From the NCBI GenBank assembly GCA_002347045.1, contig DDWV01000001.1, forward strand, positions 419,844 through 483,843: a DNA stretch of 64,000 nucleotides, given 5' to 3'. The stretch's first letter is position 1. The number at the start of each line of letters is the position of its first letter. Shown piece after piece: positions 1 to 42,222 of the stretch. Under the pieces are notes generated by a model that worked only from the letters and a program-made list of their open reading frames with translations, had not been told where the DNA came from and made no database searches. This DNA is from Candidatus Collierbacteria bacterium UBA2277. Its GTDB lineage: Bacteria; Patescibacteriota; Microgenomatia; UBA1400; MFAQ01. A program made the translations under genes and the position numbers.

Positions 1-240
1 GCGTGGGCGGGCGCGCGGGCGACTACCACGAAAACGGGCGGGGAATCCCTTTCTGTTGTCTGTTATAACGAAATTCGAACTTATTTTCGGGACCATTACT
101 AATCTATTGGCTCACCGCTCCACACCTCGTGTCTCGCGGTTCGCCACCGACTCTGCCGTAACATCGGTTCGGACGATGGCTACCGCAGTAGCCATGACAG
201 AAAACGCAAAAATTAAAAAATTTCCTATAGTATTTTGATT
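1..240 (+). repeat. GC-rich structured mosaic repeat, copy 1 (modules A+B+C); extends upstream beyond window start
   Basis: Nucleotide identity of ~60-100 nt blocks with 2636-2830 (+) and 8860-8960 (minus strand); GC-rich and hairpin-rich in an AT-rich genome; ends in shared motif TGACAGAAAACGCAAAAAT...CCTATAG; spurious ORF 56..238 shares only nucleotide-level identity with ORF 8733..8954. Confidence 0.6.
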
Positions 241-387
241 TACACAAAAACCCTGAGAAACTAAGTCTATATATTTAACATTATTTAAATAATATCTTCT
301 CTAATATTGATATGTCTGTGGTGTTTTGCAGTACTTTCAAATAGTGTTTCTTTGACTATCTTCATCTTTTAAGTGCAAAAAGACATG

Positions 388-417
388 TTGACATGAGTAT
401 CAAGTTAGCGTTATATT
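388..417 (+). promoter_or_regulatory. sigma70-like promoter (TTGACA-N18-TATATT), probably giving a leaderless transcript for the 426 CDS
   Basis: TTGACA at 388-393, TATATT at 412-417, ATG at 426 only ~8 nt downstream, no SD. Confidence 0.4.
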
Positions 418-425
418 AGAATTAT

Positions 426-1232
426 ATGGAAGACAAAGAAAAACAACCAAAAGTTTCATCTGTAGTAGACGGAGACAAGAAAAAAAGAACGCTAAATACT
501 TTTCCAAGAATACCGATCAGTAAAGTGCTGGATTTGGCTAAAACTATTTACGAACTAGGTGAAGGAGATCCAGTTCCTAGACTAGTGGTGTTTGATAAAC
601 TTGGAAAGTCTCCAGAAAGCGGACCAAGTAGAATGTTGATTACCACATCAAATTCGTACGGACTTACTACTGGTAGTTATGTAGCAGAGAGACTTGGCAT
701 CACTGAATTAGGAAAGTCAATCGTTTCAAAAGATGGTAGTCAACGCCGAGATGAAATAGTTAGGGCACTTCTCACGAACGATTTATTTTCAAGGTTTCAC
801 GAAAAATACTCTGCTAAGGGAATACCAACCGAACCGATTGGAGAAGACTATTTAAAACAAGTGGGGAGTCTAAGCGGAGCTGATGCAAAAGTAGCCTTTT
901 CCGTCTTTATGGAGAACATGAAAGATCATGGTTTCATCCGTGAATTATCTGGTCGACCAACGATTCTACCAATTGGAATGATGGAATTGAAAGATGAAGT
1001 TAAAAAAAATGATGAGCAAACTCCAAAAGTTGAAATGGCATTCATTGCAGAAAACATAAAGAGCGAGAAAACACCAAAACCAGATCAGACAACGCCTCTT
1101 GTCTCACCGGCAATTGTTCCTCAATTTAATTTTAATATCCAAGTTCAAATACCAGACAATTCCACAGCTGAGACTTATGATGCAATTTTTAAAAGCATTG
1201 CAGATAATCTTCTGAAGATTAATAGTAAATAA
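426..1232 (+). CDS. hypothetical protein (268 aa), first gene of a coupled pair
   Basis: Long ORF; stop overlaps start of next ORF (TAATG); no recognisable motifs. Confidence 0.6.
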   Translation: MEDKEKQPKVSSVVDGDKKKRTLNTFPRIPISKVLDLAKTIYELGEGDPVPRLVVFDKLGKSPESGPSRMLITTSNSYGLTTGSYVAERLGITELGKSIVSKDGSQRRDEIVRALLTNDLFSRFHEKYSAKGIPTEPIGEDYLKQVGSLSGADAKVAFSVFMENMKDHGFIRELSGRPTILPIGMMELKDEVKKNDEQTPKVEMAFIAENIKSEKTPKPDQTTPLVSPAIVPQFNFNIQVQIPDNSTAETYDAIFKSIADNLLKINSK

Positions 1233-1819
1233 TGCCTGGTGATATATTAATACAGCTTTTGAGACAGGCTACAGAAAGTAGTCATCTGTCACGTCAAGGA
1301 GTGTCAAACCTGACATTGCAGCCTGAATCATCGAGTGGAAAAGAAAACCTCTCGACTAATTACTATCTCAATCAGCAAATCTATAGTGCATTGTGTGGAC
1401 TGTCTGACACCTTAGCAAATAGCTACAGACAGATCGTTAGAGATTTTGAAGACTCAGAGCGTACTGCATGGACTGGAACCGCCCACGATATTAGAGAACT
1501 TTTACGTCTTATTCTTGAAAAATTAGCACCAACAGATAAAGTCGTGAATATGTCATGGTACAAACAGGAAAAAGATAATACTGGTCCCACCCAGAAACAA
1601 AGGGTCAAATACATACTTTCCGAAATTAATGCTGACTCTAAAGAACAGGAAGTAGTACAAAATATCGACATCATTGAAGATAGGATTGGGAATTTGGTAA
1701 GGAAAGTATATGGAAGAGCTAGTGATTCGGCTCACAGGACAAAGGGCAAGACTGAAGCGTTCAAAATTCTACGATATTTTGAGGCTTTTGCGTATGACCT
1801 TTTAGACCTAAAACAATAG
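1232..1819 (+). CDS. hypothetical protein (195 aa) with C-terminal Rx5H (HEPN-like) motif RASDSAH
   Basis: ORF translationally coupled to upstream gene; Rx4-6H motif near C-terminus is only suggestive. Confidence 0.5.
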   Translation: MPGDILIQLLRQATESSHLSRQGVSNLTLQPESSSGKENLSTNYYLNQQIYSALCGLSDTLANSYRQIVRDFEDSERTAWTGTAHDIRELLRLILEKLAPTDKVVNMSWYKQEKDNTGPTQKQRVKYILSEINADSKEQEVVQNIDIIEDRIGNLVRKVYGRASDSAHRTKGKTEAFKILRYFEAFAYDLLDLKQ

Positions 1820-1834
1820 AGGTAGAATACTTTT

Positions 1835-1969
1835 ATGGCAGCAAATAAAAGACTAACCCAACTTCCTTCAACGTTCTTTTGGCTAACTATCGTCACTGCA
1901 GTTTTAGCTGGAGTTCAAGTACTAACAGCTATACTTCAAATTATTAAACCGATGTTAAGTTCCACTTAA
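1835..1969 (+). CDS. small hydrophobic peptide (44 aa, single predicted TM; holin- or toxin-like)
   Basis: Own translation MAANKRLTQLPSTFFWLTIVTAVLAGVQVLTAILQIIKPMLSST*; AGAGG ~12 nt upstream; fills the gap between flanking genes; below ORF-track cutoff. Confidence 0.3.
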   Translation: MAANKRLTQLPSTFFWLTIVTAVLAGVQVLTAILQIIKPMLSST

Positions 1970-1973
1970 TACT

Positions 1974-2630
1974 ATGAAATGGTCTGAAAATAAAGGGAAA
2001 ATTTCAGAATTGTATTCTTCTGGAGTTTCGATGAGTGAAATAAGGAAACAATTCCCCATGAGATACAGTAGAAAAATGCTGACTTATCTAAAAGACCGAA
2101 ATATTGCAAAAAAACTAAAAAATGGCGATATTGTAAGTGAAAATGAAATAGCTGATGTCAGAAACAAACGTTTAATGGATAGCGTGCTATTTGAACATAT
2201 TGAGAAAATCAAGAGCCTATATTCAGAAGGACTATCCGCAAGTGAAATAAAGGAGATAATTAGGGTGCCGATCTCCGTCCGAAGTATTCAAAGGTATATT
2301 GGATTACTTGGGATGTCGAGAACAGTAGGAGACGCATTTAGACTTGCAAATTCCAGAGGTAGGATTGACAGGAGCCACTTAATAAAGGAAAGGAAAGCTG
2401 GAGAATTTAGAAAATCCATAAGCACAAAAACAAGATATTTTGTGCTTAATAGAGATAACTTTAGCTGTGTTGATTGTGGATTTACAGCTAAGGACGGAAA
2501 ACTGCTAGACATGGATCATATTATTAGGCCTGAGGATGGTGGTGATAATTCTATTGATAATTTAGTTACCCGTTGTCGCGAGTGCAATATTGGCAGATAT
2601 CTGATTGAACAAAAACACAAAAAAGTATAA
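1974..2630 (+). CDS. HNH endonuclease with N-terminal tandem HTH-like (NUMOD-like) DNA-binding repeats; homing-endonuclease-like
   Basis: C-terminal CVDCG...DHIIRPEDGG...NLVTRCRECN HNH motif; two N-terminal repeats (ISELYSSGVSMSEIRK / IKSLYSEGLSASEIKE). Confidence 0.7.
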   Translation: MKWSENKGKISELYSSGVSMSEIRKQFPMRYSRKMLTYLKDRNIAKKLKNGDIVSENEIADVRNKRLMDSVLFEHIEKIKSLYSEGLSASEIKEIIRVPISVRSIQRYIGLLGMSRTVGDAFRLANSRGRIDRSHLIKERKAGEFRKSISTKTRYFVLNRDNFSCVDCGFTAKDGKLLDMDHIIRPEDGGDNSIDNLVTRCRECNIGRYLIEQKHKKV

Positions 2631-2635
2631 TCCTG

Positions 2636-2830
2636 TTGCCTGCGAAGCGAGCACTTTGGCCGGCAGACAGGTCAACACTTCGTGTCTCGCGGTTCGCCAC
2701 CGCCTGCTCCCGCCGCAGTGGGACCGGATCAACATCGGTTCGGACGATGGCTACTCAGTAGCCATGACAGAAAACGCAAAAATTTGTATATACCTATAGT
2801 AACAACTCAATAAGGTTGACTAGGTGTAAA
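2636..2830 (+). repeat. GC-rich structured mosaic repeat, copy 2 (modules D+B+C)
   Basis: Shares CGTGTCTCGCGGTTCGCCACCG and AACATCGGTTCGGACGATGGCTAC..CAGTAGCCATGACAGAAAACGCAAAAAT with copy 1; 5' part (GCCTGCGAAGCGAGCACTTTGGCCGGCAG) matches 8541-8575. Confidence 0.6.
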
Positions 2831-2839
2831 ATATAGATT

Positions 2840-3526
2840 ATGGAAATAATAGGTTGGATTTTATTTTTGGTCTTTGGAGGGTACATTTGGGACCGCTTAA
2901 TGTCAATGGCTTCAGACCAAATAAATATATCCCAACTAGGTAGTATCCGAGTACCTAAACTATTTTTGAAACTAGCGAATATTTCTAAATATGAGAAAGA
3001 GGAAATACTTTACAAAGATTTAGGAAAGTCTGAAATAAAAAAGATCGATGAGATCGTCGAGAAGTTTCATAAAGTATCAAACATAACGCTCACGTATTTA
3101 CGTCATCAGAATCTTATCCATGTTTCTTCAGGAACTAAATCATCCTTTTTTCAAACCGACAAGTGGTACAAAACATTGTATTCCGAAGAGATAATGAGAC
3201 AAGATGAGGACAATTATCTTGCGTTCGGAATTTACAGAAGAAAAGGTGGAATTTCCAAATCTCCTGTATTGGTGGGATACTTGAAAATGGAAAATGAAAT
3301 AGGTGTAAACGAAAAAAATGAATACGAGGTTGTTTTTGAGTTTCCAGAAAAACTAATTAACAAGGGGTTCTTAACAGGGACTTTAGAAAAGAAATTTGAT
3401 CTAAAAAAGGAGGTTATTGCCGATTATTGGGATAAAAATGAATTTGGTGACCCAGATGAAATTTACTACACTATTTATAACCAAGAAGGAAAATATCCTG
3501 TAAATTTCCAGTTTAGATTTATTTAA
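2840..3526 (+). CDS. hypothetical protein (228 aa), N-terminal TM helix
   Basis: ORF only. Confidence 0.5.
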   Translation: MEIIGWILFLVFGGYIWDRLMSMASDQINISQLGSIRVPKLFLKLANISKYEKEEILYKDLGKSEIKKIDEIVEKFHKVSNITLTYLRHQNLIHVSSGTKSSFFQTDKWYKTLYSEEIMRQDEDNYLAFGIYRRKGGISKSPVLVGYLKMENEIGVNEKNEYEVVFEFPEKLINKGFLTGTLEKKFDLKKEVIADYWDKNEFGDPDEIYYTIYNQEGKYPVNFQFRFI

Positions 3527-3539
3527 TCAGAAACCCAGA

Positions 3540-3893
3540 CTACTTTTTTATTAGATGTTTCGTGTTATTTTCGATAGAATCCATCTTCTCTACTAGCTCA
3601 TCAAACCTCTCAGAAAGATCCTCATTTTGGGATCGTAATCCATATATTAGCACCAAGCAAGAGACCATTACTGCGAAGAATACTACGAACAGTGAATCCA
3701 TACCCATCCATTCGGTCAGCACATACCACAGGATTGAAGACCCAATTAGTGGCCAAAATAGCGCATTGATAACCTCAAGCCCTTGATTTAGTGATTCTTT
3801 TATATTCATATTGGTATTATATATCCTCAAAAAAACCGATCTGCTTGTCCACATATTAAGTTTTCTACAGTGATCAAAACATGTTAATCCCAT
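3540..3893 (-). CDS. small membrane protein (117 aa)
   Basis: ORF with two hydrophobic segments; overlaps end of 3874..4719 by 20 nt. Confidence 0.4.
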   Translation of the reverse strand: MGLTCFDHCRKLNMWTSRSVFLRIYNTNMNIKESLNQGLEVINALFWPLIGSSILWYVLTEWMGMDSLFVVFFAVMVSCLVLIYGLRSQNEDLSERFDELVEKMDSIENNTKHLIKK

Positions 3894-4719
3894 ATTTTAA
3901 TATCGATATATTATTGATTCCACCAACGAAAGCTTTATGCAAGTTAAAACATAAAGTGTGGTAATTCAAATAATAAAGATAAAAATCGGATACATTGACT
4001 CCCGACTCTAGAAATTCCATGTCGCGGTAGTTAGCTTTTATTCGATACCAATATAAAAACTCCCACAGGTTTAAATCTGTACTCGTTAGGAAATTAGTAT
4101 TATTAGCTCCTGTGAGGCGTTTTATATTTCTTCTTCTCTTAAAATCGTCTTTTTTGTAATCCAAAATCTTTTTAATTACTTGCCTGTATCTGGTCCTTGG
4201 ATCGGGATTTCCGATTACGATATTACTTCCCGACGGTATCATCCAAGATGAAGTTCTGGTCGCTGGAATAATTGAATTAAAATATGGCTCATTAAAAATG
4301 ATTTCATTGTTTCTTATTAATTCTTTAAGCCTGTGGTTTACAGCTTCATGTGTATTACTTAACCAACTAATATCATCATCGATTAGCCATTCTAGAATAA
4401 GGAGAAGATTGAAGAAGAGGTAATAACTTTTAACAGGAATCCACGAACTACATATTTGTGCGTAGTCCCTAAACTGATTGATTTGATCCATTTCAGAATC
4501 AATATTTTTCATAACTAACTTTGTAAGTCCGACCTTTTTTGTGACTTGAACTGGGACAGTATTTGAAATAGCAGAAAAATGTGCGGGAATGTTAATTGTC
4601 AGACCTCCAGAAATACCACTAATAAAGTTAAGGTAATTGGAGTGTGTGGTAAATTCTGCGTTTACAACTGGGGTAGATCCCACTGTCCTCCAACCAGAAC
4701 CGAGGTATGTTGCCGGCAT
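3874..4719 (-). CDS. hypothetical protein (281 aa)
   Basis: ORF; start codon overlaps the peptidase stop (4719); same operon as the ATP-grasp genes. Confidence 0.55.
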   Translation of the reverse strand: MPATYLGSGWRTVGSTPVVNAEFTTHSNYLNFISGISGGLTINIPAHFSAISNTVPVQVTKKVGLTKLVMKNIDSEMDQINQFRDYAQICSSWIPVKSYYLFFNLLLILEWLIDDDISWLSNTHEAVNHRLKELIRNNEIIFNEPYFNSIIPATRTSSWMIPSGSNIVIGNPDPRTRYRQVIKKILDYKKDDFKRRRNIKRLTGANNTNFLTSTDLNLWEFLYWYRIKANYRDMEFLESGVNVSDFYLYYLNYHTLCFNLHKAFVGGINNISILKYGINMF

Positions 4720-5228
4720 TATTTATAAACCGCGATCATTTGGCGAATGACCATGTCTTCCCATTTTTCGATATGGTCTGAGGTGAAGTCAAACCAAACT
4801 CGGATAAAATCTTCTTTGAGAAGCTTTCTCATTCTGCCAACTTCTGGATCTTGGAGATATATATTTTCCTCGTCCAAACCAACTACCACAGAATAGTGGC
4901 CGTCTGCTAAGTCATCTTCGTCGTAATCAGCCCTGCCTCTCGTCATCCAGTTCACAATTACAGGTGCTTTTTTGCCCAAAGCAACTTGGATGTCCTCAAA
5001 AGATGCAAAATTCTTTATTTCAACTTTTAGTCCTTCTCCTTCTAGTGTCCTTTTTATATCTTCGTCGCCAATTCCCAGATCATCGTCCTTGTTGGAAAGA
5101 ATAGCCACTTCAGCCTCGGTTTTATCGATGCCATAAAAATCCAAGACCATTTTAATGACGGCTGGGCCACAAAAACTACCATGTAGTGTTTCTTGAAAAG
5201 GTTTGACGGGAAGTAAGTTAGTATCCAT
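4719..5228 (-). CDS. papain-like cysteine peptidase, C39-like (Peptidase_C39_2/BtrH-like)
   Basis: N-terminal SFCGPAV catalytic Cys context and later DGHYSVVVG His context, ~170 aa size typical of C39-like domains. Confidence 0.55.
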   Translation of the reverse strand: MDTNLLPVKPFQETLHGSFCGPAVIKMVLDFYGIDKTEAEVAILSNKDDDLGIGDEDIKRTLEGEGLKVEIKNFASFEDIQVALGKKAPVIVNWMTRGRADYDEDDLADGHYSVVVGLDEENIYLQDPEVGRMRKLLKEDFIRVWFDFTSDHIEKWEDMVIRQMIAVYK

Positions 5229-5240
5229 GCGTATATTGTA

Positions 5241-6533
5241 CTATGTTAAGAGATTTTTCAGTTCTTCAGCAATATTTGTGGCTATTCCCAGATCATTCCC
5301 TATTGCCACATAACCCAAGATATGGTCAGTTTCATTAATTAAAGTGATAATGATTCCCTTTTTACTATCTTTTGAGTATATAAGGGTTGATACCCGAGAT
5401 AATAGCTCCCCGATTGATTTAATATCATCAATGTATTCAAAATGGTCGTTTGAGATAAAAGAGTGGTTTTGAAAATCGGCACCAAAAAGTCTTTTAGCGA
5501 GATCGTAAACATGCGTGCCACCTGTTCTGCGCGCATTTGTTTCTACGGCAAATATTTCTCCTGTTTTGGAAATTACATAATCAATATCAAAAATACCTTG
5601 ATAGCCCAGAGACTGGAAATGTTTTCCTATTACCAGAGCGGATTCTTCTAGCTTCTTTGCAATATCAAGAGGAATAGATCCATTGCCGACAACTGTTCCC
5701 TGAAACTCACCATTGATGACAATCTGTCCACAGAGATAGGTGATTTTTACTTCTGATTCCGTAACAAACAATTCAGCTGAAGGTGTTCCACCACCCACTG
5801 TCGCATCAACATCAATAAGTTCCTCAATAATATACGGCCCATTTGACCAAATTGTCTCAATAGTAACTTGGTTAATAAGAGAATCTGTTGTAGTCTGAGG
5901 ATCGTCAACTAAAATTAAACCCCATCCTGATTCTCCTTGATCGGCTTTGAGGGCGAAAGGTCGCTTGTTTGTTTTGAACCAATCGATTTTATTTTCTAGT
6001 TCCTCTATGGTTTGACAAATATAACCTTCAGGACAGCTAACGTTTAACTTTTCAACTTCTTTTCTAAACCCTGACTTTGAGTCCAAATATCTAATGAGAT
6101 CATACCCACCTTTTGATGGTTCGCCATCGACAAAGACATCTATTCCAATTTCTCTGGCTTTCTCGACTAATTCAAGAAAGCTTGATGTGATAGCATAAGG
6201 AGAAATAACAACATCTTTTTCACCAACTAATTCTTTGAAATTATATAAATCTATTGAATTTGAGAGATTTAATCCCCCATTCCTTGGAGAATAATTGCTG
6301 GTGTTTGAAAATTTCAAAATATTTGAATTGAGATCGAGAAGTTCTTCGGGGATTGAGAATGGGGTAACCACAATTTTATTGTCATCCTCCCAAAAGAAGG
6401 CTCTCTGAGAAAGGGCTAGCTCATGCCTGATCCTCTTTTGTCCTTCATCAGAACCACCGCTGGATACCAATATATCCTCAAAAGCTTCTGCTGTATTGGC
6501 GAATACAATGTTTATTGATTTTTCTGTTTCCAT
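5241..6533 (-). CDS. ATP-grasp domain ligase (carboxylate-amine ligase, biotin-carboxylase-like clade)
   Basis: C-terminal half with AVETNARRTGGTH (ExN.R ATP-grasp motif), 430 aa. Confidence 0.55.
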   Translation of the reverse strand: METEKSINIVFANTAEAFEDILVSSGGSDEGQKRIRHELALSQRAFFWEDDNKIVVTPFSIPEELLDLNSNILKFSNTSNYSPRNGGLNLSNSIDLYNFKELVGEKDVVISPYAITSSFLELVEKAREIGIDVFVDGEPSKGGYDLIRYLDSKSGFRKEVEKLNVSCPEGYICQTIEELENKIDWFKTNKRPFALKADQGESGWGLILVDDPQTTTDSLINQVTIETIWSNGPYIIEELIDVDATVGGGTPSAELFVTESEVKITYLCGQIVINGEFQGTVVGNGSIPLDIAKKLEESALVIGKHFQSLGYQGIFDIDYVISKTGEIFAVETNARRTGGTHVYDLAKRLFGADFQNHSFISNDHFEYIDDIKSIGELLSRVSTLIYSKDSKKGIIITLINETDHILGYVAIGNDLGIATNIAEELKNLLT

Positions 6534-6588
6534 TATCTTGATTTTAAATATAAAATACCCCCGACGCTATGTGCATCAGGGGTATATC

Positions 6589-7593
6589 TTAAACTAACTT
6601 TTCGCGACTGGCCGCTATGAGAATAATTCCCTCAATCAGATCTTCAAATCCTCGACCAGTGAAACTTGCCATCTTGGTCAAGGTATTATTTAATCCGTGA
6701 GAGTTTGGACCAATTCCAGGATTGTAATTGACTTCGAGTAGATAAATTTCTCCATCTGGGGTAACTCGGAAGTCCATTCGGGCATAATCACGGCACTCTG
6801 TAGCTCGAAAAGCGGTTTTTGTGAAATCAACCAGTTTTTCAATCACCGAACTTGGAAGATCTGCTCTGACCATCTTTTCCGTTTGCCCTCCCCATTTGTA
6901 CTCAAACGATCTGATTTTCAACAAATCATCTTGAGTATCGGGGAATTGAAACTCGAGCGGAGGAAGAACGATCAAGTTTGTGCCATTCCCAATTACGCCA
7001 ACCGAAATTTCTCGACCAACAATGAAAGACTCGACAATGGCCTGCTGGAAATAGTTAGAAATGATGTGGGCAACTTTGGCTCTCAACTCTGTTTCGTTTT
7101 TCACAACACAGTCTGCGTAAATTCCGATACTGCCTTCTTGCCGGATAGGTTTAACGATCGCCGGAAAGGAAATATTGGATTGGAGAACTTCGTCTGGACT
7201 ATCAAATCTTTGATATGGTGTAACAGGTACTCCATACCCCTGACAAACTAGTTTGCTTTTCTCTTTGTCCAAAGTTAGTTGCATATTCAAAGATGAAGCT
7301 CCTGTGAAAGGAATCCTCAGAGCTTCGAGCATAGCAGGGACAAGGGGTTCGTCTGTGTTTCCACCACCGAATGATTCAGCCATATTTAGAACAAGATCGA
7401 AAGTGCCGATCCGGCGGACAAGATCATTCCAGAGATTTTGAGTGGTTTCGAGGGTTTCGACCTCGTAGCCACGAGCCAGAAGCAATTCTTCGACAAGAGG
7501 GACAATAATTTCGATTTCGTGCTCACAGATGATATCTGAGGCCACTCCGACTCCAAGATCTCTAGCGACATTGTAAAGTACAAGGATTTTCAT
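6589..7593 (-). CDS. ddl: D-alanine--D-alanine ligase family ATP-grasp enzyme
   Basis: FGGGNTDEPLVPAMLEALRIPFTGASSLNMQLTLDK (Ddl N-domain pattern), AIVKPIRQEGSIGI, RMDFRVTPDGEIYLLEVNYNPG. Confidence 0.6.
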   Translation of the reverse strand: MKILVLYNVARDLGVGVASDIICEHEIEIIVPLVEELLLARGYEVETLETTQNLWNDLVRRIGTFDLVLNMAESFGGGNTDEPLVPAMLEALRIPFTGASSLNMQLTLDKEKSKLVCQGYGVPVTPYQRFDSPDEVLQSNISFPAIVKPIRQEGSIGIYADCVVKNETELRAKVAHIISNYFQQAIVESFIVGREISVGVIGNGTNLIVLPPLEFQFPDTQDDLLKIRSFEYKWGGQTEKMVRADLPSSVIEKLVDFTKTAFRATECRDYARMDFRVTPDGEIYLLEVNYNPGIGPNSHGLNNTLTKMASFTGRGFEDLIEGIILIAASREKLV

Positions 7594-7648
7594 AAATCCT
7601 CCTTTTTTATATATAGGATGATGTATTCTACACTATTTCCACCATCTT

Positions 7649-8533
7649 GTGCCTAGAATGTTTTTTGAATTATATTATCCAAGATCTCGATTTTTAGCTA
7701 TAATGCTAGGCATGGAAATGATGCATGGAGTTTTAACCTCTCTTTTTAAAATTGACACGGAAAAAGGTAAGGAAATCGGCTCAGCGTTTACGCCACTGTG
7801 CCATGAATTTAATCAATTTTTAGATCTACCGGCAGACAAAAAAGACATGCTTTTAGATCCGATTCTTTCTGTTATGAAAAAACTTGGAAGGATAGCAGAA
7901 GCAGTAGACCGATACGAAATCCTAGAAGAAGAGAAGATGGAAAATTTGATTAAACGAGCACAAAAAGACCAGAGTAGTGTTATCTTAAAACACGAAGACA
8001 GCTCAACCCAACTCGAAGGTGCGGTTGAAGACGTGATTAACAGTTCAAAGGCGGCTCTTGATGCGGCGGTGAAAATATTGAAACCATTATGGGGAATAAA
8101 TCTAACGACTTACGGTGATGCGGGTGAAAAGGTTGTAAAGGCTTTAAAAAGAAATATTCCTGATAAATTCCAACCTAACATAATCACGCTAGCTGAGGTT
8201 ATTCAGGAATGCTCTCCGTGGATACGGCTAATAAGAAACTTAAGGACAAAAACTGAACACCTGGGTGTAAATATAGTATCTCCTCTATCGGTGAGTATTA
8301 CTGACAAATTAGCTACAAAAGAATACCCTCTTGTTGACAAAAGTATACCTGCCAAAGAATTTGTAAACATTACATACAATAATATTTTCGTTTTTTTACA
8401 AGAATTCATTGTCTTATCTCTAGGATCAAGACTTTTATCAGGAATGATACCAGTCGTCGTAAGTGGTGAGGGGAAAAATCGAAAATTTGGCATAGCAATC
8501 AAAACTGTCGAGGCTCAAGACCCAAAAATCTGA
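7649..8533 (+). CDS. hypothetical protein (294 aa; alternative start at 7712 after a TATAAT at ~7699)
   Basis: ORF only; no recognisable domain. Confidence 0.5.
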   Translation: MPRMFFELYYPRSRFLAIMLGMEMMHGVLTSLFKIDTEKGKEIGSAFTPLCHEFNQFLDLPADKKDMLLDPILSVMKKLGRIAEAVDRYEILEEEKMENLIKRAQKDQSSVILKHEDSSTQLEGAVEDVINSSKAALDAAVKILKPLWGINLTTYGDAGEKVVKALKRNIPDKFQPNIITLAEVIQECSPWIRLIRNLRTKTEHLGVNIVSPLSVSITDKLATKEYPLVDKSIPAKEFVNITYNNIFVFLQEFIVLSLGSRLLSGMIPVVVSGEGKNRKFGIAIKTVEAQDPKI

Positions 8534-8534
8534 C

Positions 8535-8995
8535 TTAGTGCCTGCGAAGCAGGCACTTTGGCCGACAGGCCAATGCTGTCTCAAGGATTTAATACCCACT
8601 GATAAAATTTTCTCTTAATCAGTGGGTATTTATGGCGAGGAGATGCAATCTATATAGATTGCTTCGTCATTTCATTCCTCGCAATGACGATGTTCTTCCG
8701 AGCCATATATTGAGAAAGCTTCGCCACAATCACTAGATGTGATCTTGTGGCGAACATATAAGTGCGACAGCGATAGCTGGCACTTGCTCGCAAGAGCAAT
8801 CATCCCGACCGCAGTCGGGATACAATATTGGTATCGCGCGCAAGGGGTTCCGCCGGCAGGCGGTGGCGAACCGCGAGACACGAAGTGTTGAGCGGTGAGC
8901 CAATAGATTAGTAGTGGTCCCGAAAATAAGTTCGAATTTCGTTATAACAGACAACAGAAAGTGACAGAAAACGTAAAAAATAGGTTATGACCTAT
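8535..8995 (-). repeat. GC-rich structured mosaic repeat, copy 3 (composite: module D on + strand at left, modules B+A on minus strand at right, ~250 nt hairpin-rich unique core)
   Basis: 8541-8575 matches copy-2 5' part; 8860-8955 is the reverse complement of copy-1 5' part; 8960-8995 on + strand carries TGACAGAAAACGTAAAAAAT...CCTATAA end motif; several perfect hairpins (e.g. 8591-8628). Confidence 0.55.
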
Positions 8996-8998
8996 AAC

Positions 8999-9027
8999 TT
9001 GACTTATCGAGTGTGTCGGGGTATAAT
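8999..9027 (+). promoter_or_regulatory. consensus sigma70 promoter TTGACT-N17-TATAAT
   Basis: Exact -35/-10 hexamers with 17-nt spacer; followed by AGGAGG RBS and ATG at 9076. Confidence 0.6.
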
Positions 9028-9075
9028 TTCTGAATTCAACTGTTCTTTTAGCAGCCAAGGAAAATAGGAGGAGTA

Positions 9076-9279
9076 ATGAGAGTAAAAGTACTATATGCAC
9101 TCCCCAGGGAGAGCATATCAGAGTATTGTGATAGGCTTGTTAAACAAGCAATACATCAAAACTCCACTGTATATGGAGTGTTTAATACAATTTCTTTTAT
9201 TGCTTGCCCGGACACAGCCCCAGAGTATCTAGAGGGGTACTATAGTGGTCGAATATATAGCCCGATGAATGAAAGGTAG
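9076..9279 (+). CDS. hypothetical small protein (67 aa)
   Basis: Strong promoter + AGGAGG SD 8 nt upstream of ATG. Confidence 0.5.
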   Translation: MRVKVLYALPRESISEYCDRLVKQAIHQNSTVYGVFNTISFIACPDTAPEYLEGYYSGRIYSPMNER

Positions 9280-9345: not shown

Positions 9346-10119
9346 TTATTTTTGAGACAGCTTGAAAACAAGAGACATGGAAAAGATGATAGCCTCTATA
9401 ACAATGATAGTTGGCCCTGCCGGAAGTCCCCAAGCTTGTGAAAAGAGTATTCCCAGAACTGTTCCAACGGCTCCTATTACGACCGCCCAAAATTTGTATT
9501 CAGGAAGTGATCGACTAATATTTCGTGACGCTCCGGCAGGTATCGCAATTAGGGCCACAGTAATCAGACCGCCAACCAGATAGACCCCAAGGGCGACAAC
9601 GACAGCAATTGAAAGAAGATAAACAAGATTGTAAAAAGAAACATTTATTTTCTTGGCGATAGCAATTTCTTCGTTGATATTTATGAGTATCATTTTTTTG
9701 TAAATGCGCTTGACACTGAGATATACAAGGACACTCAAAACCGTAACCATTGCTGTCTCCCATCCAGAGATCTTCATGATATTTCCGACTAGCGCCTCTT
9801 CGGCTTGGTCTATAGGTAAGAATAGTAGCGATGTCCCTACGCCAAAGGCGAATATTACGGCTGTTAGATTTTCCATTGGTAATTTTGTTTTTTTCTCTAG
9901 AAACCAGATTAGAATCGCTCCAAAAATTACAAAGGGGAAGACTCCAAGAGCAAAACTAAAATGATAAACGATTGCAAGTGCTACTCCCGGAAAAGCAAGG
10001 TGAGCTAGAGGCCCAGCGACAACAGACATTTTTTTTGAAAGCATTAAAGTGCCAAGATATGCCGCGGCACTACTTATTAATAGGCCACTAATTAGACTGA
10101 GGATTAGTTGTGTGTTCAT
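9346..10119 (-). CDS. znuB: metal (zinc/manganese) ABC transporter permease, ABC-3 family
   Basis: Polytopic membrane protein; operon context with ATPase and Fur-family regulator. Confidence 0.75.
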   Translation of the reverse strand: MNTQLILSLISGLLISSAAAYLGTLMLSKKMSVVAGPLAHLAFPGVALAIVYHFSFALGVFPFVIFGAILIWFLEKKTKLPMENLTAVIFAFGVGTSLLFLPIDQAEEALVGNIMKISGWETAMVTVLSVLVYLSVKRIYKKMILININEEIAIAKKINVSFYNLVYLLSIAVVVALGVYLVGGLITVALIAIPAGASRNISRSLPEYKFWAVVIGAVGTVLGILFSQAWGLPAGPTIIVIEAIIFSMSLVFKLSQK

Positions 10120-10838
10120 AGGTTTTTTGCTGGGTGATCATAAAGTTTAATTTCCATACCAAACACTTGTTCAAGCATGTTTGGAGTGAGAATTGATTTT
10201 GGCTCTCCAAAACACAGGTGTTTCTTTTGACTAAGACAAAGTACCTTTTTGGAGTATTTGTAAACAATGCTAACGTCATGAGTTACCAAAAAGATTGTTA
10301 GTTTTTGAGTTTGTTGAAGCTTGTGAAGAAGAGAGTAAAGATTTTCTCCTCCACCAATATCAATCCCTGATGTTGGTTCGTCCAAAAAAACTACCTGTGG
10401 ATTGTCGATGAGAACCCAGGCTATCAACATTCTCTGAAACTGACCTCCCGAAAGAGTATATGCGTTTTTAAATAGGAATTTTGCATCGAGACCTACTAGC
10501 TTTAGTGATTTAATAACCTCATCGGTTTTGTGGACAGGCTCTTTGAGATCGAAAATATCTTTAACTGTCAGAGGCATGCCTTTTATGGCTTGTTGGTTAA
10601 GATTTTGAGGTAGATATCCGATTGAGACTTTTTTGTTCCAGATTATTTCCCCATTAAACGGTAGTATTCCTAGAATGGCTTTGAGAAGAACGCTTTTTCC
10701 AGAGCCATTGGGGCCTAATATAGTAATAGTATCTCCTTCGTTTACCGAAAAGGATAAGTTGTTGTGAACAATGTGGCCATCTAAAACAACATTTAGATTT
10801 TTGATTTCAAGTAATTTGCTCATATACATTTTTGGCAC
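10116..10838 (-). CDS. znuC: metal ABC transporter ATP-binding protein
   Basis: Walker A GPNGSGKS, signature LSGGQFQR, Walker B VVFLDEP. Confidence 0.8.
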   Translation of the reverse strand: MPKMYMSKLLEIKNLNVVLDGHIVHNNLSFSVNEGDTITILGPNGSGKSVLLKAILGILPFNGEIIWNKKVSIGYLPQNLNQQAIKGMPLTVKDIFDLKEPVHKTDEVIKSLKLVGLDAKFLFKNAYTLSGGQFQRMLIAWVLIDNPQVVFLDEPTSGIDIGGGENLYSLLHKLQQTQKLTIFLVTHDVSIVYKYSKKVLCLSQKKHLCFGEPKSILTPNMLEQVFGMEIKLYDHPAKNL

Positions 10839-11224
10839 AAGCCAAAGAATTCAAGATCGTGTTTTTGAACATGAAAGTGATATTGGTTAGTAATAAACTT
10901 TTCTGTTTTTGAAAAACTGTGTTTCATTTTTATTGGAATGATCTTTTTGCATTTTGAACAAAACAAGTAATGATGGTGTGTGCTGGTAGATATCTCGAAG
11001 CGCCTTTGGCCATCGCCAAGTATCACCTCCGAAATGAACCCAGAAGATACAAGTTTTTTTGTTTCACGATAGATGGTGGTTTTGTTTGCCCTGACTTTAT
11101 ATATAAGATCTAAGGCTGTTTTTGGACAGCCTGATTCTGATAGTATTGACAATATTTTAAGTCTAATTGGAGTTTCTTTTAGGTTTAGCTCTCTGAGACG
11201 CAACTTTATATCATCGGTTGACAT
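10820..11224 (-). CDS. zur: Fur-family metalloregulator (likely Zur)
   Basis: wHTH N-terminus, HHHY...CSKC...CQKC metal sites; upstream of znuCB. Confidence 0.7.
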   Translation of the reverse strand: MSTDDIKLRLRELNLKETPIRLKILSILSESGCPKTALDLIYKVRANKTTIYRETKKLVSSGFISEVILGDGQRRFEISTSTHHHYLFCSKCKKIIPIKMKHSFSKTEKFITNQYHFHVQKHDLEFFGLCQKCI

Positions 11225-34947: not shown

Positions 34948-35290
34948 TAGGGGTACTCCCGGGTGCTGGTGAGGAACGCTCCTTCGAGTAATCGAAGGGG
35001 AGGAAAGTCCGGACAGCTAAAAGATAAGGTGACCAGGGAAACCTGGTTTTCCGCCAAGTGATTGGTGGAACGCGATAGGGCCACAGAGACGAATAAAGGT
35101 GAAACGCTCTTGGATACAAGAGATTTCTTAAGAGTAATTTTAAGAAAGTGGTAACCCGCCCTGCTGCAATCGACGAATTGGGATTAAGGTATCTTTTCCG
35201 CCCCAAAAGTCTCGAGCATTAGACAGATGTTCCTCCTTGACAGAATCCGGCTTACTATGACCTGGGAGTCCCGAAAGGGTTTCCGCCAAA
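34948..35290 (+). ncRNA. rnpB: RNase P RNA (bacterial type)
   Basis: GAGGAAAGTCCGGAC, GGTGAAACG, ACAGAATCCGGCTTA conserved blocks; P1 pairing GGTACTCCCGGG / CCTGGGAGTCC; TATAAT just upstream; ORFs 34860..35084 and 34928..35206 are spurious. Confidence 0.8.
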
Positions 35291-42084: not shown

Positions 42085-42155
42085 CGGGGTGTAGTATAAC
42101 GGTAGTATTTGCGCATGGGGTGCGCAAGGCTGGAGTTCAATTCTCCACACCCCGA
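42085..42155 (+). tRNA. tRNA-Pro (anticodon GGG), no encoded CCA
   Basis: Acceptor CGGGGTG/CACCCCG, D-arm GTAT/GTAT (two G-U wobble pairs) with GG loop, anticodon stem TGCGC/GCGCA loop ATGGGGT, T-arm TGGAG-TTCAATT-CTCCA. Confidence 0.6.
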
Positions 42156-42222
42156 CAATATAAATAGGCTAGTTTCAGGGATGTGCCCTTCGCTTGTGAT
42201 ATTTGTTGTGATAAGTTCTCCA

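What the first reader, a model, noticed from the sequence alone, without database searches (positions are those of the whole stretch)
1..9030. Three copies of a mosaic, GC-rich, hairpin-dense repeat bracket accessory DNA
Copies lie at 1-240 (+), 2636-2830 (+) and 8535-8995 (composite, mostly minus). They share 20-100-nt modules in different combinations: A = CTTTCTGTTGTCTGTTATAACGAAATTCGAACTTATTTTCGGGACC...GGCTCACCGCTC (copies 1 and 3), B = CGTGTCTCGCGGTTCGCCACCG (all three), C = AACATCGGTTCGGACGATGGCTAC..CAGTAGCCATGACAGAAAACGCAAAAAT (copies 1 and 2), and D = GCCTGCGAAGC.AGCACTTTGGCCG (copies 2 and 3). All three end in TGACAGAAAACGYAAAAAT followed ~10 nt later by CCTATA(G/A) and, in copy 3, a perfect outward TTGACT-17-TATAAT promoter. 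Identity is at nucleotide level and not protein level, because ORFs 56..238 and 8733..8954 diverge once the shared DNA ends. The copies bound two putative islands (240-2636 and 2830-8535). They could be att-core duplications from serial integration into a structured ncRNA gene, a new ncRNA/riboregulator family, or a MITE/intron-like element.
Basis: seen in the sequence. Interest (0 to 1): 0.7.

Follow-up and report, generated by a model that had tools for sequence, protein, structure and literature searches.

The report
Recombinase island arms at tRNA-Gln
The three GC-rich repeats are the conserved, hairpin-rich end pieces of a mobile DNA island that a large serine recombinase, encoded just upstream of the window, inserted next to a tRNA-Gln gene. 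The same end pieces recur in many related groundwater bacteria and match no described RNA or repeat family.

Summary
In detail: all modules, coordinates and the promoter check out, and the modules occur nowhere else in the 64 kb.

Ten kb of upstream sequence explains them. A tRNA-Gln gene is followed by a large serine recombinase (LSR) gene, whose 3' end and attachment core are repeated, inverted, as copy 1.
- Copy 3 (8538-8961, minus strand) is the full-length ~424-nt distal arm, ending in the same 10-nt core (CAACAGAAAG) as the tRNA 3' end.
- Copy 1 is the short arm next to the LSR.
- Copy 2 is a degenerate chimera at the joint between two cargo modules.

Together they define a ~10.6-kb composite island: attL lies upstream of the window and attR at 8952-8961.

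The same layout recurs in about 50 metagenome contigs with different cargo. Related loci supply attB-, attP-, attL- and attR-type junctions. More distant Patescibacteria LSR genes are also flanked by long inverted repeats containing their own 3' end.

The long arm has conserved hairpins with compensatory changes and a segment complementary to LSR codons, and it has no Rfam match. Whether it acts as RNA, and on which strand, is unresolved.

Verdict: a new variant of a known kind (a tRNA-targeting LSR island).

The parts
1..48 (+). Module Z: the inner part of the inverted-repeat arm. It is a duplicate of the GC-rich last codons of the LSR gene (...RAWAGARATTTKTGGES). The arm really starts 22 nt before the window, and its partner arm lies next to the tRNA-Gln at L001 7958-8037.
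   Evidence: 80-nt, 98% inverted repeat L001 7958-8037 / 9554-9633. The tail is conserved at protein level across the LSR family.
49..58 (+). Core c' (CTTTCTGTTG) of the internal attP-like site. It is the reverse complement of the tRNA-Gln 3'-end core CAACAGAAAG.
   Evidence: Read directly from the sequence; four-way att alignment.
55..152 (+). Modules A-B of the short arm. The first ~25 nt are the putative P' half-site, with TCGAAC 17-22 nt after GTTG. A three-tier hairpin containing CGTGTCTCGCGGTTCGCCACCG follows.
   Evidence: the fold is.
160..230 (+). Module C is two hairpins. The first, CATCG-GTTCGGA-CGATG, starts with a copy of the LSR codons NIGSN. Motif M (195-213) and CCTATAG (224-230) follow, and this is the outer end of the conserved LSR module. 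Cargo begins after it.
   Evidence: The alignment of 21 short arms diverges right after CCTATAG. The LSR-codon copy is shown.
240..2635 (+). Cargo module 1: 426-1232 (PDC-M34A-like), 1232-1819 (pPIWI/Aga-associated nuclease) and 1974-2630 (HNH endonuclease). Promoter-like site at 388-417.
2636..2799 (+). Copy 2, a degenerate chimeric junction. In order: antisense 3'-terminal hairpin D (2637-2666), a B hairpin with a broken outer stem (2662-2707), an extra hairpin CCCGC-CGCA-GTGGG (2709-2722), C (2731-2764), M (2765-2783) and CCTATAG (2793-2799).
   Evidence: The same B-hairpin-C-M variant follows the tRNA-Gln in the LSR-less island L055.
2840..8533 (.). Cargo module 2: unknown proteins, C39-like peptidase (4719-5228, minus), ATP-grasp protein (5241-6533, minus), Ddl-like ligase (6589-7593, minus) and an unknown protein at 7649-8533.
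   Evidence: The same gene set is bounded by arm fragments in L057, L045 and L056.
8538..8961 (-). Full-length long arm, the candidate structured RNA (~424 nt). In order: core, A, B, the hairpin CCGCC-UGCC-GGCGG, the LSR-complementary segment GGAACCCCUUGCGCGCGAU, several variable hairpins, a long hairpin with a UUAGGAG-type loop (UUAAGAG in this copy), P1 closure, and the 3' hairpins GGCC-N4-GGCC and GUGCCUGC-UUC-GCAGGCAC (module D).
   Evidence: Alignment A1 and RNAalifold; pair counts; fold z-scores of -10.7 and -9.2 for the two strands.
8952..8961 (+). attR core CAACAGAAAG, a direct repeat of the core at the tRNA-Gln 3' end (L001 7958-7967, which is window -1617 to -1608).
8962..9027 (+). 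Right flank: motif M and CCTATAA (8962-8997), which resemble the outer end of a short arm and are probably a relic of an earlier element. The TTGACT-17-TATAAT promoter (8999-9027) of gene 9076-9279 follows.

Best explanation
What the repeats are. The three repeats are the arms of a large-serine-recombinase (LSR) integrative island sitting at the 3' end of a tRNA-Gln gene just upstream of the window.

The element. In this element family the LSR gene is flanked by long inverted repeats. Each arm holds a copy of the LSR 3' coding end, an attachment core, a nearly invariant ~100-nt segment (A-B) and GC-rich hairpins.

How the layout arises. If the circular element recombines through the core of the downstream (long) arm with the tRNA-Gln 3' end (crossover within CAACA), the result is exactly the layout seen:
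- tRNA | core | LSR (minus strand)
- short arm = copy 1
- cargo
- long arm in antisense = copy 3 | core | flank

Copy 2. Copy 2 is a decayed joint between two cargo modules. It was probably made by homologous or illegitimate recombination between arms of two elements. The near-identical A-B segment offers a ready homology patch for such cargo shuffling.

Shown:
- The LSR domains.
- The tRNA adjacency.
- The repeated core.
- The four junction types in relatives.
- Variable cargo.
- Conserved hairpins.
- The complementarity between the long arm and LSR codons.

Inferred:
- The first ~25 nt of A is the attP P' half-site.
- In the excised circle the long arm is the structured 3' extension of the LSR transcript, pairing with LSR codons ~200 nt upstream, so that integration uncouples it from the gene.
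- The upstream short arm is an attP-like operator or insulator.
For: LSR and tRNA.
- The upstream ORF has Resolvase, Recombinase and Zn_ribbon_recom domains.
- It lies next to tRNA-Gln(CUG).

Repeats around the island.
- An 80-nt, 98% inverted repeat surrounds the LSR gene.
- The 10-nt core is a direct repeat at L001 7958 and window 8952.

Recurrence.
- The module map of about 60 loci shows the same order repeatedly, with unrelated cargo.
- The only gene family shared by many loci is the LSR.

Junction types.
- attB-like: tRNA-Gln plus native trailer in L048.
- attR: the same trailer after A'-CAACA in L035, L018, L020 and L027.
- attP: L049.
- attL: L001.

Wider family.
- LSR relatives at 55-60% identity (L180-L182) also have 55- to 131-nt inverted repeats of their own 3' end, and L013 has ~320 nt.
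- They also carry the AAAACGCAAAAATT motif upstream of the start codon.
- More than 7,900 homologues exist. Their called ORFs run from a conserved tail (...PFAxLxAxxGAxxA...S-L-S-V) into antisense tRNA or into the A module.

Half-site spacing.
- TCGAAC lies 13-18 nt after GTTG in the tRNA antisense strand and 17-22 nt after it in A.
- This resembles the 5-bp zinc-ribbon-domain (ZD) motif shift between attB and attP reported in PMC3783163.

Structure.
- 97% of cells are paired.
- 19 pairs show double changes, against 7.7 in shuffles (0 of 500 shuffles reach 19).
- The slid controls give 5 or fewer.

Long-range complement.
- In the Collierbacteria-type loci, 12+6 bp (14+5 in the window copy) pair with the QKIARKGS codons.
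- In L181 a different, perfect 23-mer sits at the homologous position.
Against: - No empty attB was found for this particular genome. Contigs from other samples break inside A'.
- The window's attR flank is not the native tRNA trailer but another M-CCTATAA unit, so the history here is more complex than a single integration.
- The role of the second (upstream) attP-like arm is unexplained, because LSRs are not known to recombine attP with attP or attL.
- No promoter or terminator for an arm RNA was found.
- Both strands fold equally well.
- Apart from two conserved G-U pairs, wobble statistics do not favour a strand: 18 G-U cells against 26 A-C cells.
- The A-B domain is invariant and so gives no covariation information.
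- No recombination-directionality-factor (RDF), replication or transfer gene was recognised in the island.
Confidence: 0.75

Rival explanations
1. The arms encode a functional structured RNA coupled to the recombinase. It could be a 3'-UTR or antisense riboregulator that senses whether the element is excised or integrated, or an RNA cofactor of recombination. On this reading the repeats are RNA genes first and att flanks second. This reading is compatible with the island model.
For: - Hairpins are conserved, with compensatory changes and variable-length insertions.
- Folding energy is very low (z = -10.7).
- Both the long and the short form close a P1 helix between the core-proximal 5' end and a downstream GACAG motif.
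- The long arm has a segment complementary to LSR codons, and that segment changes in step in a distant lineage.
- The GCG-CGC codons there and the GC-rich tail are unusual for a 39% GC genome.
- An SD-like UUAGGAR motif is conserved in the loop of the long hairpin of the long arm (UUAAGAG in the window copy and one other).
- There is no Rfam match.
Against: - There are no expression data and no promoter or terminator.
- In the integrated state the long arm's 5' end abuts host DNA.
- The strand is not resolved.
- The most conserved part (A-B) may be conserved for DNA binding or recombination.
- LSRs are known to need no cofactors (PMC3783163).
Confidence: 0.3
2. An integron-like cassette platform. 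The short arm next to the divergently oriented recombinase acts like attI. Full or partial long arms (solo D, copy 2) act like attC sites that delimit cargo cassettes captured one after another by the LSR.
For: - The layout is recombinase, then short arm, then cargo, then arm fragment, then cargo, then long arm, in the window and in L027, L035, L016, L008 and L038.
- The same C39/ATP-grasp cassette is bounded by arm fragments in different contexts.
- The arm fragments are hairpin-forming.
Against: - The recombinase is a serine, not a tyrosine, enzyme.
- Cassettes are multi-gene, of mixed orientation, and have their own promoters.
- Internal fragments such as copy 2 are degenerate (broken B stem) and lack a core, so they look like relics rather than sites.
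- LSRs need distinct attP and attB partners.
Confidence: 0.1
3. A MITE-like or IS-like non-autonomous repeat: the ~280-nt short form bounded by the inverted motif M' ... M, spreading on its own and only by chance next to the recombinase.
For: 21-nt inverted repeats (TTCATTTTTGCGTTTTCTGTC / GACAGAAAACGCAAAAATTAA) bracket the short form (I6). Many near-identical copies exist across contigs.
Against: - There are no copies elsewhere in the 64-kb window.
- There are no target-site duplications.
- The short form always sits at the same place upstream of an LSR gene and contains that gene's own 3' end, identical within each locus but different between loci.
- The inner M motif is also present upstream of distant LSR genes.
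Confidence: 0.05
4. A host housekeeping ncRNA gene that serves as the integration target, or a single-strand DNA structure such as a replication or transfer origin of the element.
For: The module is long, conserved and hairpin-rich. Both strands fold well, as expected for a DNA-level structure.
Against: - The target is tRNA-Gln.
- Several copies occur per locus, in both orientations, with unrelated flanks.
- The module is directly fused to the LSR 3' end in attP-type junctions (L049).
- No Rep, relaxase or other conserved partner gene is present.
- There is no match in the phage, plasmid or viral collections.
Confidence: 0.05

Closest known systems
tRNA-gene-targeting genomic islands and prophages integrated by large serine recombinases (phage serine integrases such as A118/LI, phiC31 and Bxb1; the SCCmec Ccr recombinases)
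   Same: - Three-domain LSR (Resolvase, Recombinase, Zn ribbon).
- Recombinase gene next to one island end.
- A short shared core at both ends.
- Variable accessory cargo.
- A motif placed 4 nt closer to the core in the bacterial half-site than in the element half-site, resembling the 5-bp ZD-motif shift (PMC3783163).
- Best NCBIfam similarities are to CcrB/XisF, far below their cut-offs.
   Different: - The core lies inside the called 3' end of the recombinase ORF, so integration swaps the sequence downstream of the last conserved codons.
- The LSR gene is flanked by 55- to 320-nt inverted repeats containing a second attP-like site.
- The element end carries a ~400-nt conserved hairpin module.
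- No phage, RDF or transfer genes were recognised.
- The host is a Patescibacteria (Collierbacteria-like) genome.
Integration-dependent regulation in mycobacteriophages (BPs/Brujita type, attP inside a gene); recalled from memory, not tested here
   Same: The attachment site sits within or at the end of a coding region. The gene product or transcript therefore differs between the excised and the integrated state.
   Different: There the enzyme is a tyrosine integrase and the split gene is the repressor. Here the recombinase gene's own 3' end and downstream structured arm are separated. No functional consequence has been shown.
Integrons (intI-attI-cassette-attC arrays)
   Same: A divergently oriented recombinase gene, an adjacent special site, and cargo blocks delimited by hairpin-forming repeats.
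   Different: A serine rather than a tyrosine recombinase. Cassettes are multi-gene with their own promoters. The internal repeats are decayed fragments without a recognisable core.
Hin/Gin-type invertible segments
   Same: A serine recombinase gene lies inside a segment bounded by inverted repeats that contain its recombination core.
   Different: - Those are small serine invertases with 26- to 34-bp sites and an enhancer.
- Here the enzyme is an LSR and the repeats are 55-320 nt.
- No alternative orientation was seen in about 10 assembled tRNA-proximal loci. L048 shows a tRNA|core|Z'|M junction.
Promoter-early stem-loop (PeSL) cassettes of T4-type phages and other repeat-mediated modular shuffling; recalled from memory
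   Same: Short conserved structured repeats bracket accessory genes. They are followed by promoters and appear in mosaic combinations.
   Different: Here the repeats derive from the attachment arms of a recombinase element, not from phage regulatory cassettes.
Element-end non-coding RNAs (IS110 bridge RNA, IS605/IS607 TnpB omega RNA) and large ornate RNAs near tRNAs or prophages (ROOL, GOLLD)
   Same: A structured, conserved sequence sits at the very end of a mobile element and starts at the recombination site. Its size range is 150-450 nt.
   Different: - No Rfam match at E<=1.
- No TnpB, IscB or DEDD transposase is present.
- There is no evidence that variable loops match target or donor DNA.
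- LSRs recognise DNA through protein domains.

Membership tests
Large serine recombinase (serine integrase) element | Recombinase with an N-terminal resolvase catalytic domain, a recombinase domain and a zinc-ribbon domain | tested here: met
   PF00239 (2.5e-20), PF07508 (3.2e-15) and PF13408 (2.1e-9) on L001 7809-9485, minus strand.
Large serine recombinase (serine integrase) element | Distinct attP/attB sites giving hybrid attL/attR with a short common core | tested here: met
   Four junction types are aligned in A2. The common core is CAACA. The 10-nt repeat CAACAGAAAG occurs at both island ends here.
Large serine recombinase (serine integrase) element | Catalytic activity and directionality (requirement for an RDF) | not testable with these tools
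   This needs biochemistry. No RDF candidate was recognised among the cargo.
tRNA-associated genomic island | Insertion at the 3' end of an intact tRNA gene, with the integrase gene adjacent | tested here: met
   tRNA-Gln(CUG) at L001 7889-7961 scores 63.9 bits. The LSR stop region abuts it. The same holds in L010, L012, L050, L053, L054, L062 and L009.
tRNA-associated genomic island | Presence/absence polymorphism: an empty site in relatives | tested here: inconclusive
   No empty site was found for this genome. An attB-like tRNA-Gln plus native trailer exists in L048, and the same trailer follows attR in four other loci.
tRNA-associated genomic island | Variable accessory cargo between conserved ends | tested here: met
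   The gene-family map of about 60 loci shows only the LSR as widely shared, with different cargo.
Structured non-coding RNA family | Conserved secondary structure supported by compensatory changes | tested here: met
   There are 81 pairs, 97.3% paired. 19 pairs show double changes against 7.7+-1.5 in shuffles (0 of 500 reach 19). Slid controls give 5 or fewer. The support comes from the 3' two-thirds only.
Structured non-coding RNA family | Defined transcript (promoter, terminator, strand, expression) | tested here: inconclusive
   No promoter or terminator was found. Both strands fold. G-U versus A-C counts are ambiguous once two conserved G-U pairs are set aside. No expression data are available.
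Known Rfam families (group I/II introns, tmRNA, ROOL, GOLLD, HEARO and others) | Covariance-model match | tested here: not met
   cmscan at gathering thresholds on the window and at E<=1 on 1-9200 gives only a chance mir-95 hit. ARAGORN finds no tmRNA.
MITE / IS-derived repeat | Terminal inverted repeats plus target-site duplications, with dispersed copies independent of one locus | tested here: not met
   An M'/M inverted repeat is present. There are no target-site duplications and no copy elsewhere in the 64 kb. The position relative to LSR genes is fixed.
Integron | Tyrosine integrase IntI with attI and attC sites | tested here: not met
   The recombinase is a serine enzyme. The internal repeats are degenerate fragments.

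The most novel reading that the evidence does not exclude
The arms are a previously undescribed class of recombinase-coupled structured RNA. In the excised circle the long arm would be the 3' extension of the LSR mRNA, base-pairing with LSR codons across attP. Integration at tRNA-Gln cuts the RNA away from the gene, so that recombinase expression or stability reports the element's state. The upstream short arm, a truncated copy carrying a second attP, would provide feedback. More radically, the RNA could take part in site choice or synapsis of a serine integrase.
Probability: 0.2. Interest if true: 0.8.

Novelty: new variant of a known kind. Interest (0 to 1): 0.58.

Why it matters
Large serine recombinases are the preferred tools for inserting large DNA into genomes. 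They are thought to need nothing but two short sites.

This finding points to a very large, uncharacterised Patescibacteria branch (more than 7,900 homologues) with these features:
- The attachment core lies at the end of the recombinase reading frame.
- In the six lineages examined, the gene is bracketed by long inverted repeats holding a second attP-like site.
- In at least two LSR subfamilies about 52% identical to each other, the element end carries a conserved ~400-nt hairpin module complementary to the recombinase codons; a more distant relative (L181) has a shorter hairpin region with its own perfect complement.

If these features are functional, they would show a new way of regulating or assisting serine integrases. 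They would also explain how tiny CPR genomes exchange defence and peptide-modification genes at a tRNA hotspot.

If they are only recombination scars, the result still gives a clean annotation rule. GC-rich mosaic repeats near tRNA-Gln in these genomes mark LSR island ends. The 'long' recombinase ORFs in databases run into antisense tRNA.

Tried and rejected
- **Rfam.** Gathering thresholds on the whole window and E<=1 on 1-9200 gave nothing relevant.
- **Genome-collection scan.** The 18-nt M motif returned almost only chance hits. One useful locus came out of it: L062, Candidatus Collierbacteria RIFOXYD2_FULL_45_13.
- **Other collections.** Viral contigs, phage records and plasmid records gave no match to the arms.
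- **Literature.** Searches for serine recombinases in CPR/Patescibacteria found nothing relevant.
- **RNAduplex.** Running it on whole LSR 3' regions against the arms gave meaningless global duplexes, and the result was discarded. The complementarity claim rests on exact-match inspection instead.
- **Empty site.** Exact-protein look-ups of the right-flank genes found only contigs that carry the island or that break inside module A.
- **Native trailer.** The native tRNA-Gln trailer is not present in the window.
- **Coding potential.** The arms' ORFs have no family matches, and frame-breaking indels occur among copies.
- **tRNA-like or tmRNA identity.** ARAGORN finds nothing in the arms.
- **History of the upstream arm.** I tried to derive the short arm's circularly permuted LSR pieces (X', Y) from a single inversion, deletion or minicircle event. 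I found no scheme that fits all junctions.

Full report
**1.

The repeat finder and blastn of the three copies against the whole window reproduce every module:
- A+B of copy 1 (46-152) is a 107-nt, 95% inverted repeat of 8858-8964.
- B occurs in all three copies.
- C+M (160-214) is 96% identical to 2731-2784.
- D (2637-2666) matches 8539-8568.
- All copies end in TGACAGAAAACGYAAAAAT, about 10 nt, then CCTATA.

The TTGACT-17-TATAAT site at 8999-9027 is one of only two 11/12 promoter matches in 9.3 kb. The modules occur nowhere else in the 64-kb window.

The window is chromosomal and about 39% GC, with RNase P class A and a tRNA-Pro. Rfam finds nothing in 1-9200, even at E<=1.

**2. The key lies upstream of the window**

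An exact-protein look-up placed the window in a 646.8-kb JGI contig and returned 10 kb of upstream DNA (L001; window position 1 = L001 9576).

That DNA holds a tRNA-Gln(CUG) at L001 7889-7961. It is followed at once by a minus-strand ORF with Resolvase, Recombinase and Zn_ribbon_recom domains, which makes it a large serine recombinase, or LSR.

The LSR gene is bracketed by an 80-nt, 98% inverted repeat: L001 7958-8037 and 9554-9633. The right arm runs into window bases 1-58. So the first 48 bases of copy 1 (module Z) duplicate the last LSR codons.

The 10-nt string CAACAGAAAG occurs in three places:
- at the tRNA 3' end (L001 7958-7967);
- in reverse complement in copy 1 (window 49-58);
- in direct orientation at the outer edge of copy 3 (window 8952-8961).

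**3. The same architecture recurs widely**

Module B alone (22 nt, exact) hits 56 metagenome stretches. Two conserved forms appear, with unrelated flanks:
- a short form, Z-core-A-B-C-M-CCTATAG, which is copy 1;
- a long form of 370-500 nt, core-A-B-E-T-D, which is copy 3 on the minus strand.

A module, LSR and tRNA map of about 60 loci gives this recurrent order:
- tRNA-Gln | core | Z' | LSR (minus strand) | M'
- short form
- cargo
- optionally a solo D, with or without B-C-M, and more cargo
- long form in antisense | core | flank

The LSR is the only gene family shared by many loci, and cargo differs between them. One genome hit names the lineage: Candidatus Collierbacteria (L062).

**4. Junctions of all four kinds exist in relatives (alignment A2)**

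- L048 has an intact tRNA-Gln followed by CAACA and a native trailer (a hairpin, then GGACTCGAAAGGCGGAGACAAGCTCGTAACG...). This is attB-like.
- L035, L018, L020 and L027 have the long form's A' end, CAACA and the same trailer. This is attR.
- L049 has an intact LSR 3' end, Z, the core and the A-long form. This is attP.
- L001 and at least seven other loci have tRNA | core | Z'. This is attL.

The crossover must lie in CAAC(A), which covers the last bases of the tRNA.

L055 comes from a host with the same upstream synteny as L001. It carries an LSR-less, decayed island at the same tRNA.

For the window's own genome no empty site was found; other contigs break inside A'. Its attR flank is another M-N13-CCTATAA unit rather than the native trailer. 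That points to a relic of an earlier element.

**5. A family-wide design explains copy 1 without any special event**

The LSR belongs to a very large Patescibacteria family, with more than 7,900 hits at E<1e-30 and a typical length of about 510 aa. Its members share these features:
- A conserved C-terminal tail (...GSNFFLKD.QL...KPFA.L.A..GA..A... ~10 variable residues ...S-L-S-V) is encoded by Z and the core. Called ORFs then run into antisense tRNA (..GIEP../LGLEPR..) or, in a few cases, into the translation of module A (...CYNEIRTYFRDHY*).
- In every lineage examined the LSR gene is flanked by inverted repeats containing its own 3' end. The lengths are about 320 nt in L013, 131 nt in L180, at least 68 nt at 100% in L181, at least 55 nt at 100% in L182, and 80 nt in L001.
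- An AAAACGCAAAAATT motif (M) lies 20-70 nt upstream of the start codon and again at the outer end of the arms.
- The roughly 35-nt variable part of Z differs greatly between loci. It is identical in both arms within L001, L009, L012, L050, L052 and L054.

Take a circle of the form [arm']-LSR-[arm]-cargo. Recombining it through the core of the downstream arm with the tRNA 3' end produces exactly the window layout. Copy 1 is the untouched upstream arm. Copy 3 is the split-off downstream arm.

**6. Copy 2 is a relic**

It joins four pieces:
- about 30 nt of the antisense 3'-terminal hairpin D;
- a B hairpin whose outer stem is broken (ACCGC replaced by ACAGG);
- an extra CCCGC-CGCA-GTGGG hairpin;
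- C-M-CCTATAG.

The same B-hairpin-C-M variant follows the tRNA in L055. Solo D fragments, or whole long forms, separate cargo blocks in L027, L035, L016, L008, L038 and others.

The C39-peptidase / ATP-grasp / Ddl-like block of cargo 2 recurs in L057, L045 and L056, bounded by arm fragments.

The A-B segment is about 97-100% identical even between elements whose LSRs are only 52% identical. It is therefore a ready substrate for homologous exchange. I infer that the mosaic pattern reflects recombination and decay between arms of successive or tandem elements.

**7. What the arms might do**

*Half-site.* After the shared GTTG, TCGAAC lies at +13..18 in the tRNA antisense strand (the T-loop) and at +17..22 in A. 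Serine integrases read the same ZD motif 5 bp closer to the centre in attB than in attP (PMC3783163). The first ~25 nt of A is therefore a plausible P' half-site. This is inference.

*Structure.* An alignment of 28 long forms (A1) gives an RNAalifold model of 81 pairs.
- On that model 97.3% of cells pair.
- 19 pairs carry double substitutions, against 7.7+-1.5 in column shuffles (0 of 500 reach 19) and 5 or fewer in the slid controls.
- Several hairpins also carry lineage-specific insertions.
- The support comes from the 3' two-thirds; A-B never varies.
- The window copy folds at -171 kcal/mol (z = -10.7). The opposite strand folds almost as well (z = -9.2).
- Apart from two conserved G-U pairs, wobble counts do not pick a strand.
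- No promoter or terminator was found.
- Both the long and the short form close a helix between the core-proximal 5' end (CUGUUGUCU) and a downstream GACAG motif. In the short form this motif is M.

*Complementarity with the LSR gene.* The long arm contains GGAACC(N)CTTGCGCGCGAT. This is complementary (12+6 bp with one bulge in most copies, 14+5 in the window copy) to the LSR codons for QKIARKGS, about 200 nt upstream of the core.
- In the distant L181, a different and perfect 23-mer (AAAATCGCGCGCGCAAAAAATAA, codons QKIARAKNN) is complementary to a segment 56 nt downstream of the stop.
- The inverted repeat therefore spans attP and changes in step between lineages.
- The short arm instead carries a direct copy of the NIGSN codons, again in lineage-specific versions in L182 and L183.

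I cannot explain these co-varying repeats. They are the main reason to keep a functional-RNA (or DNA-structure) reading alive.

**8. Mechanism proposed**

*Shown.* This is a tRNA-Gln-integrated, LSR-driven island of about 10.6 kb, running from L001 7968 to window 8951.

*Inferred.*
- The LSR recombines attP (Z variable part-core-A) with the tRNA-Gln 3' end.
- In the circle the long arm follows the LSR as a structured 3' extension, pairing back to the coding region.
- Integration moves the long arm 10 kb away and replaces it with antisense tRNA. This changes the mRNA 3' end and, possibly, the C-terminal tail.
- The upstream short arm keeps an intact attP-like site near the LSR promoter and may act as an operator or insulator.
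- Cargo is exchanged through the invariant A-B homology.

Confidence is high for the island and att assignment (about 0.75). It is low (about 0.2-0.3) for any specific RNA function.

**9. Comparison and novelty**

This is a member of the LSR integrative-element world and of the class of tRNA-associated islands. The unusual parts are:
- an attachment core inside the called 3' end of the recombinase ORF;
- inverted repeats with a second attP-like site around the gene;
- a conserved ~400-nt hairpin module at the element end.

I found none of these features in Rfam, in the phage, plasmid or viral collections, or in the searchable literature.

It fails the integron, MITE, intron and tmRNA tests. 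I rate it a new variant of a known kind, of moderate interest.

Noticed in passing
window 34959-35269 and 42085-42156: A bacterial RNase P class A RNA (a short 311-nt match, 112.9 bits) and a tRNA-Pro(GGG). They confirm that the window is chromosomal DNA of a small-genome bacterium.
   Followed up: no
L001 7809-9485 (minus strand, upstream of the window); proteins P0001-P0120: Public gene calls for this LSR family run through the att core into antisense tRNA genes, giving tails such as ...AGLGLEPRIFASRGRRPT. Either this is a systematic annotation artefact, or integration really changes the recombinase C-terminus.
   Followed up: partly
window 426-2630: Cargo module 1 looks like a three-gene defence candidate: a PDC-M34A-like protein, a pPIWI/Aga-associated nuclease domain protein, and an HNH endonuclease with an N-terminal HTH-like region.
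   Followed up: partly
window 3874-7593 (minus strand); also L057, L045, L056: A block of an unknown 281-aa protein, a C39-like peptidase, an ATP-grasp protein and a D-Ala-D-Ala-ligase-like protein travels as a unit between islands. It is always bounded by arm fragments and may be a peptide-ligation or peptide-modification cassette.
   Followed up: partly
L048 3740-3900; L035 12715-12985; L018 5930-6085; L020 1230-1395: The native trailer of tRNA-Gln is itself conserved (a hairpin plus GGACTCGAAAGGCGGAGACAAGCTCGTAACGATCTTG). About 150 nt later it is followed by a 17-nt copy of the tRNA 3' end joined to core and Z', which looks like an older attL relic. The tRNA-Gln site has therefore been used repeatedly.
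   Followed up: partly
L046 600-1910: The LSR 3' end-Z-core is joined to sequence W'. The long arm, 1.1 kb away, is preceded by W-core, with W and W' inverted. This is the footprint expected from an intramolecular inversion between attP and a nearby pseudo-site.
   Followed up: no
window 160-175 versus L001 8066-8080 (LSR codons NIGSN); window 8838-8856 versus L001 8122-8139 (LSR codons IARKGS): Two short pieces of LSR coding sequence are repeated in the arms: a direct copy in the short arm and an inverted copy in the long arm. Both change in step with the LSR gene in distant lineages (L181-L183). No mechanism I tried explains both.
   Followed up: partly
L005 394-753; L057 11710-12072; L041 117-479: A ~120-aa gene starting MTEQ(S/T)KYL sits divergently next to the long arm's 5' end in some loci. 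The M motif (ATGACAGAAAACGCAAAAAT, reading MTENAKI) looks like a truncated copy of its start.
   Followed up: partly
window 9076-9279: A 67-aa ORF with no family match sits behind the near-consensus promoter at 8999-9027. It is convergent with a FUR/ABC-transporter (metal-uptake-like) operon on the minus strand (9346-11224).
   Followed up: no
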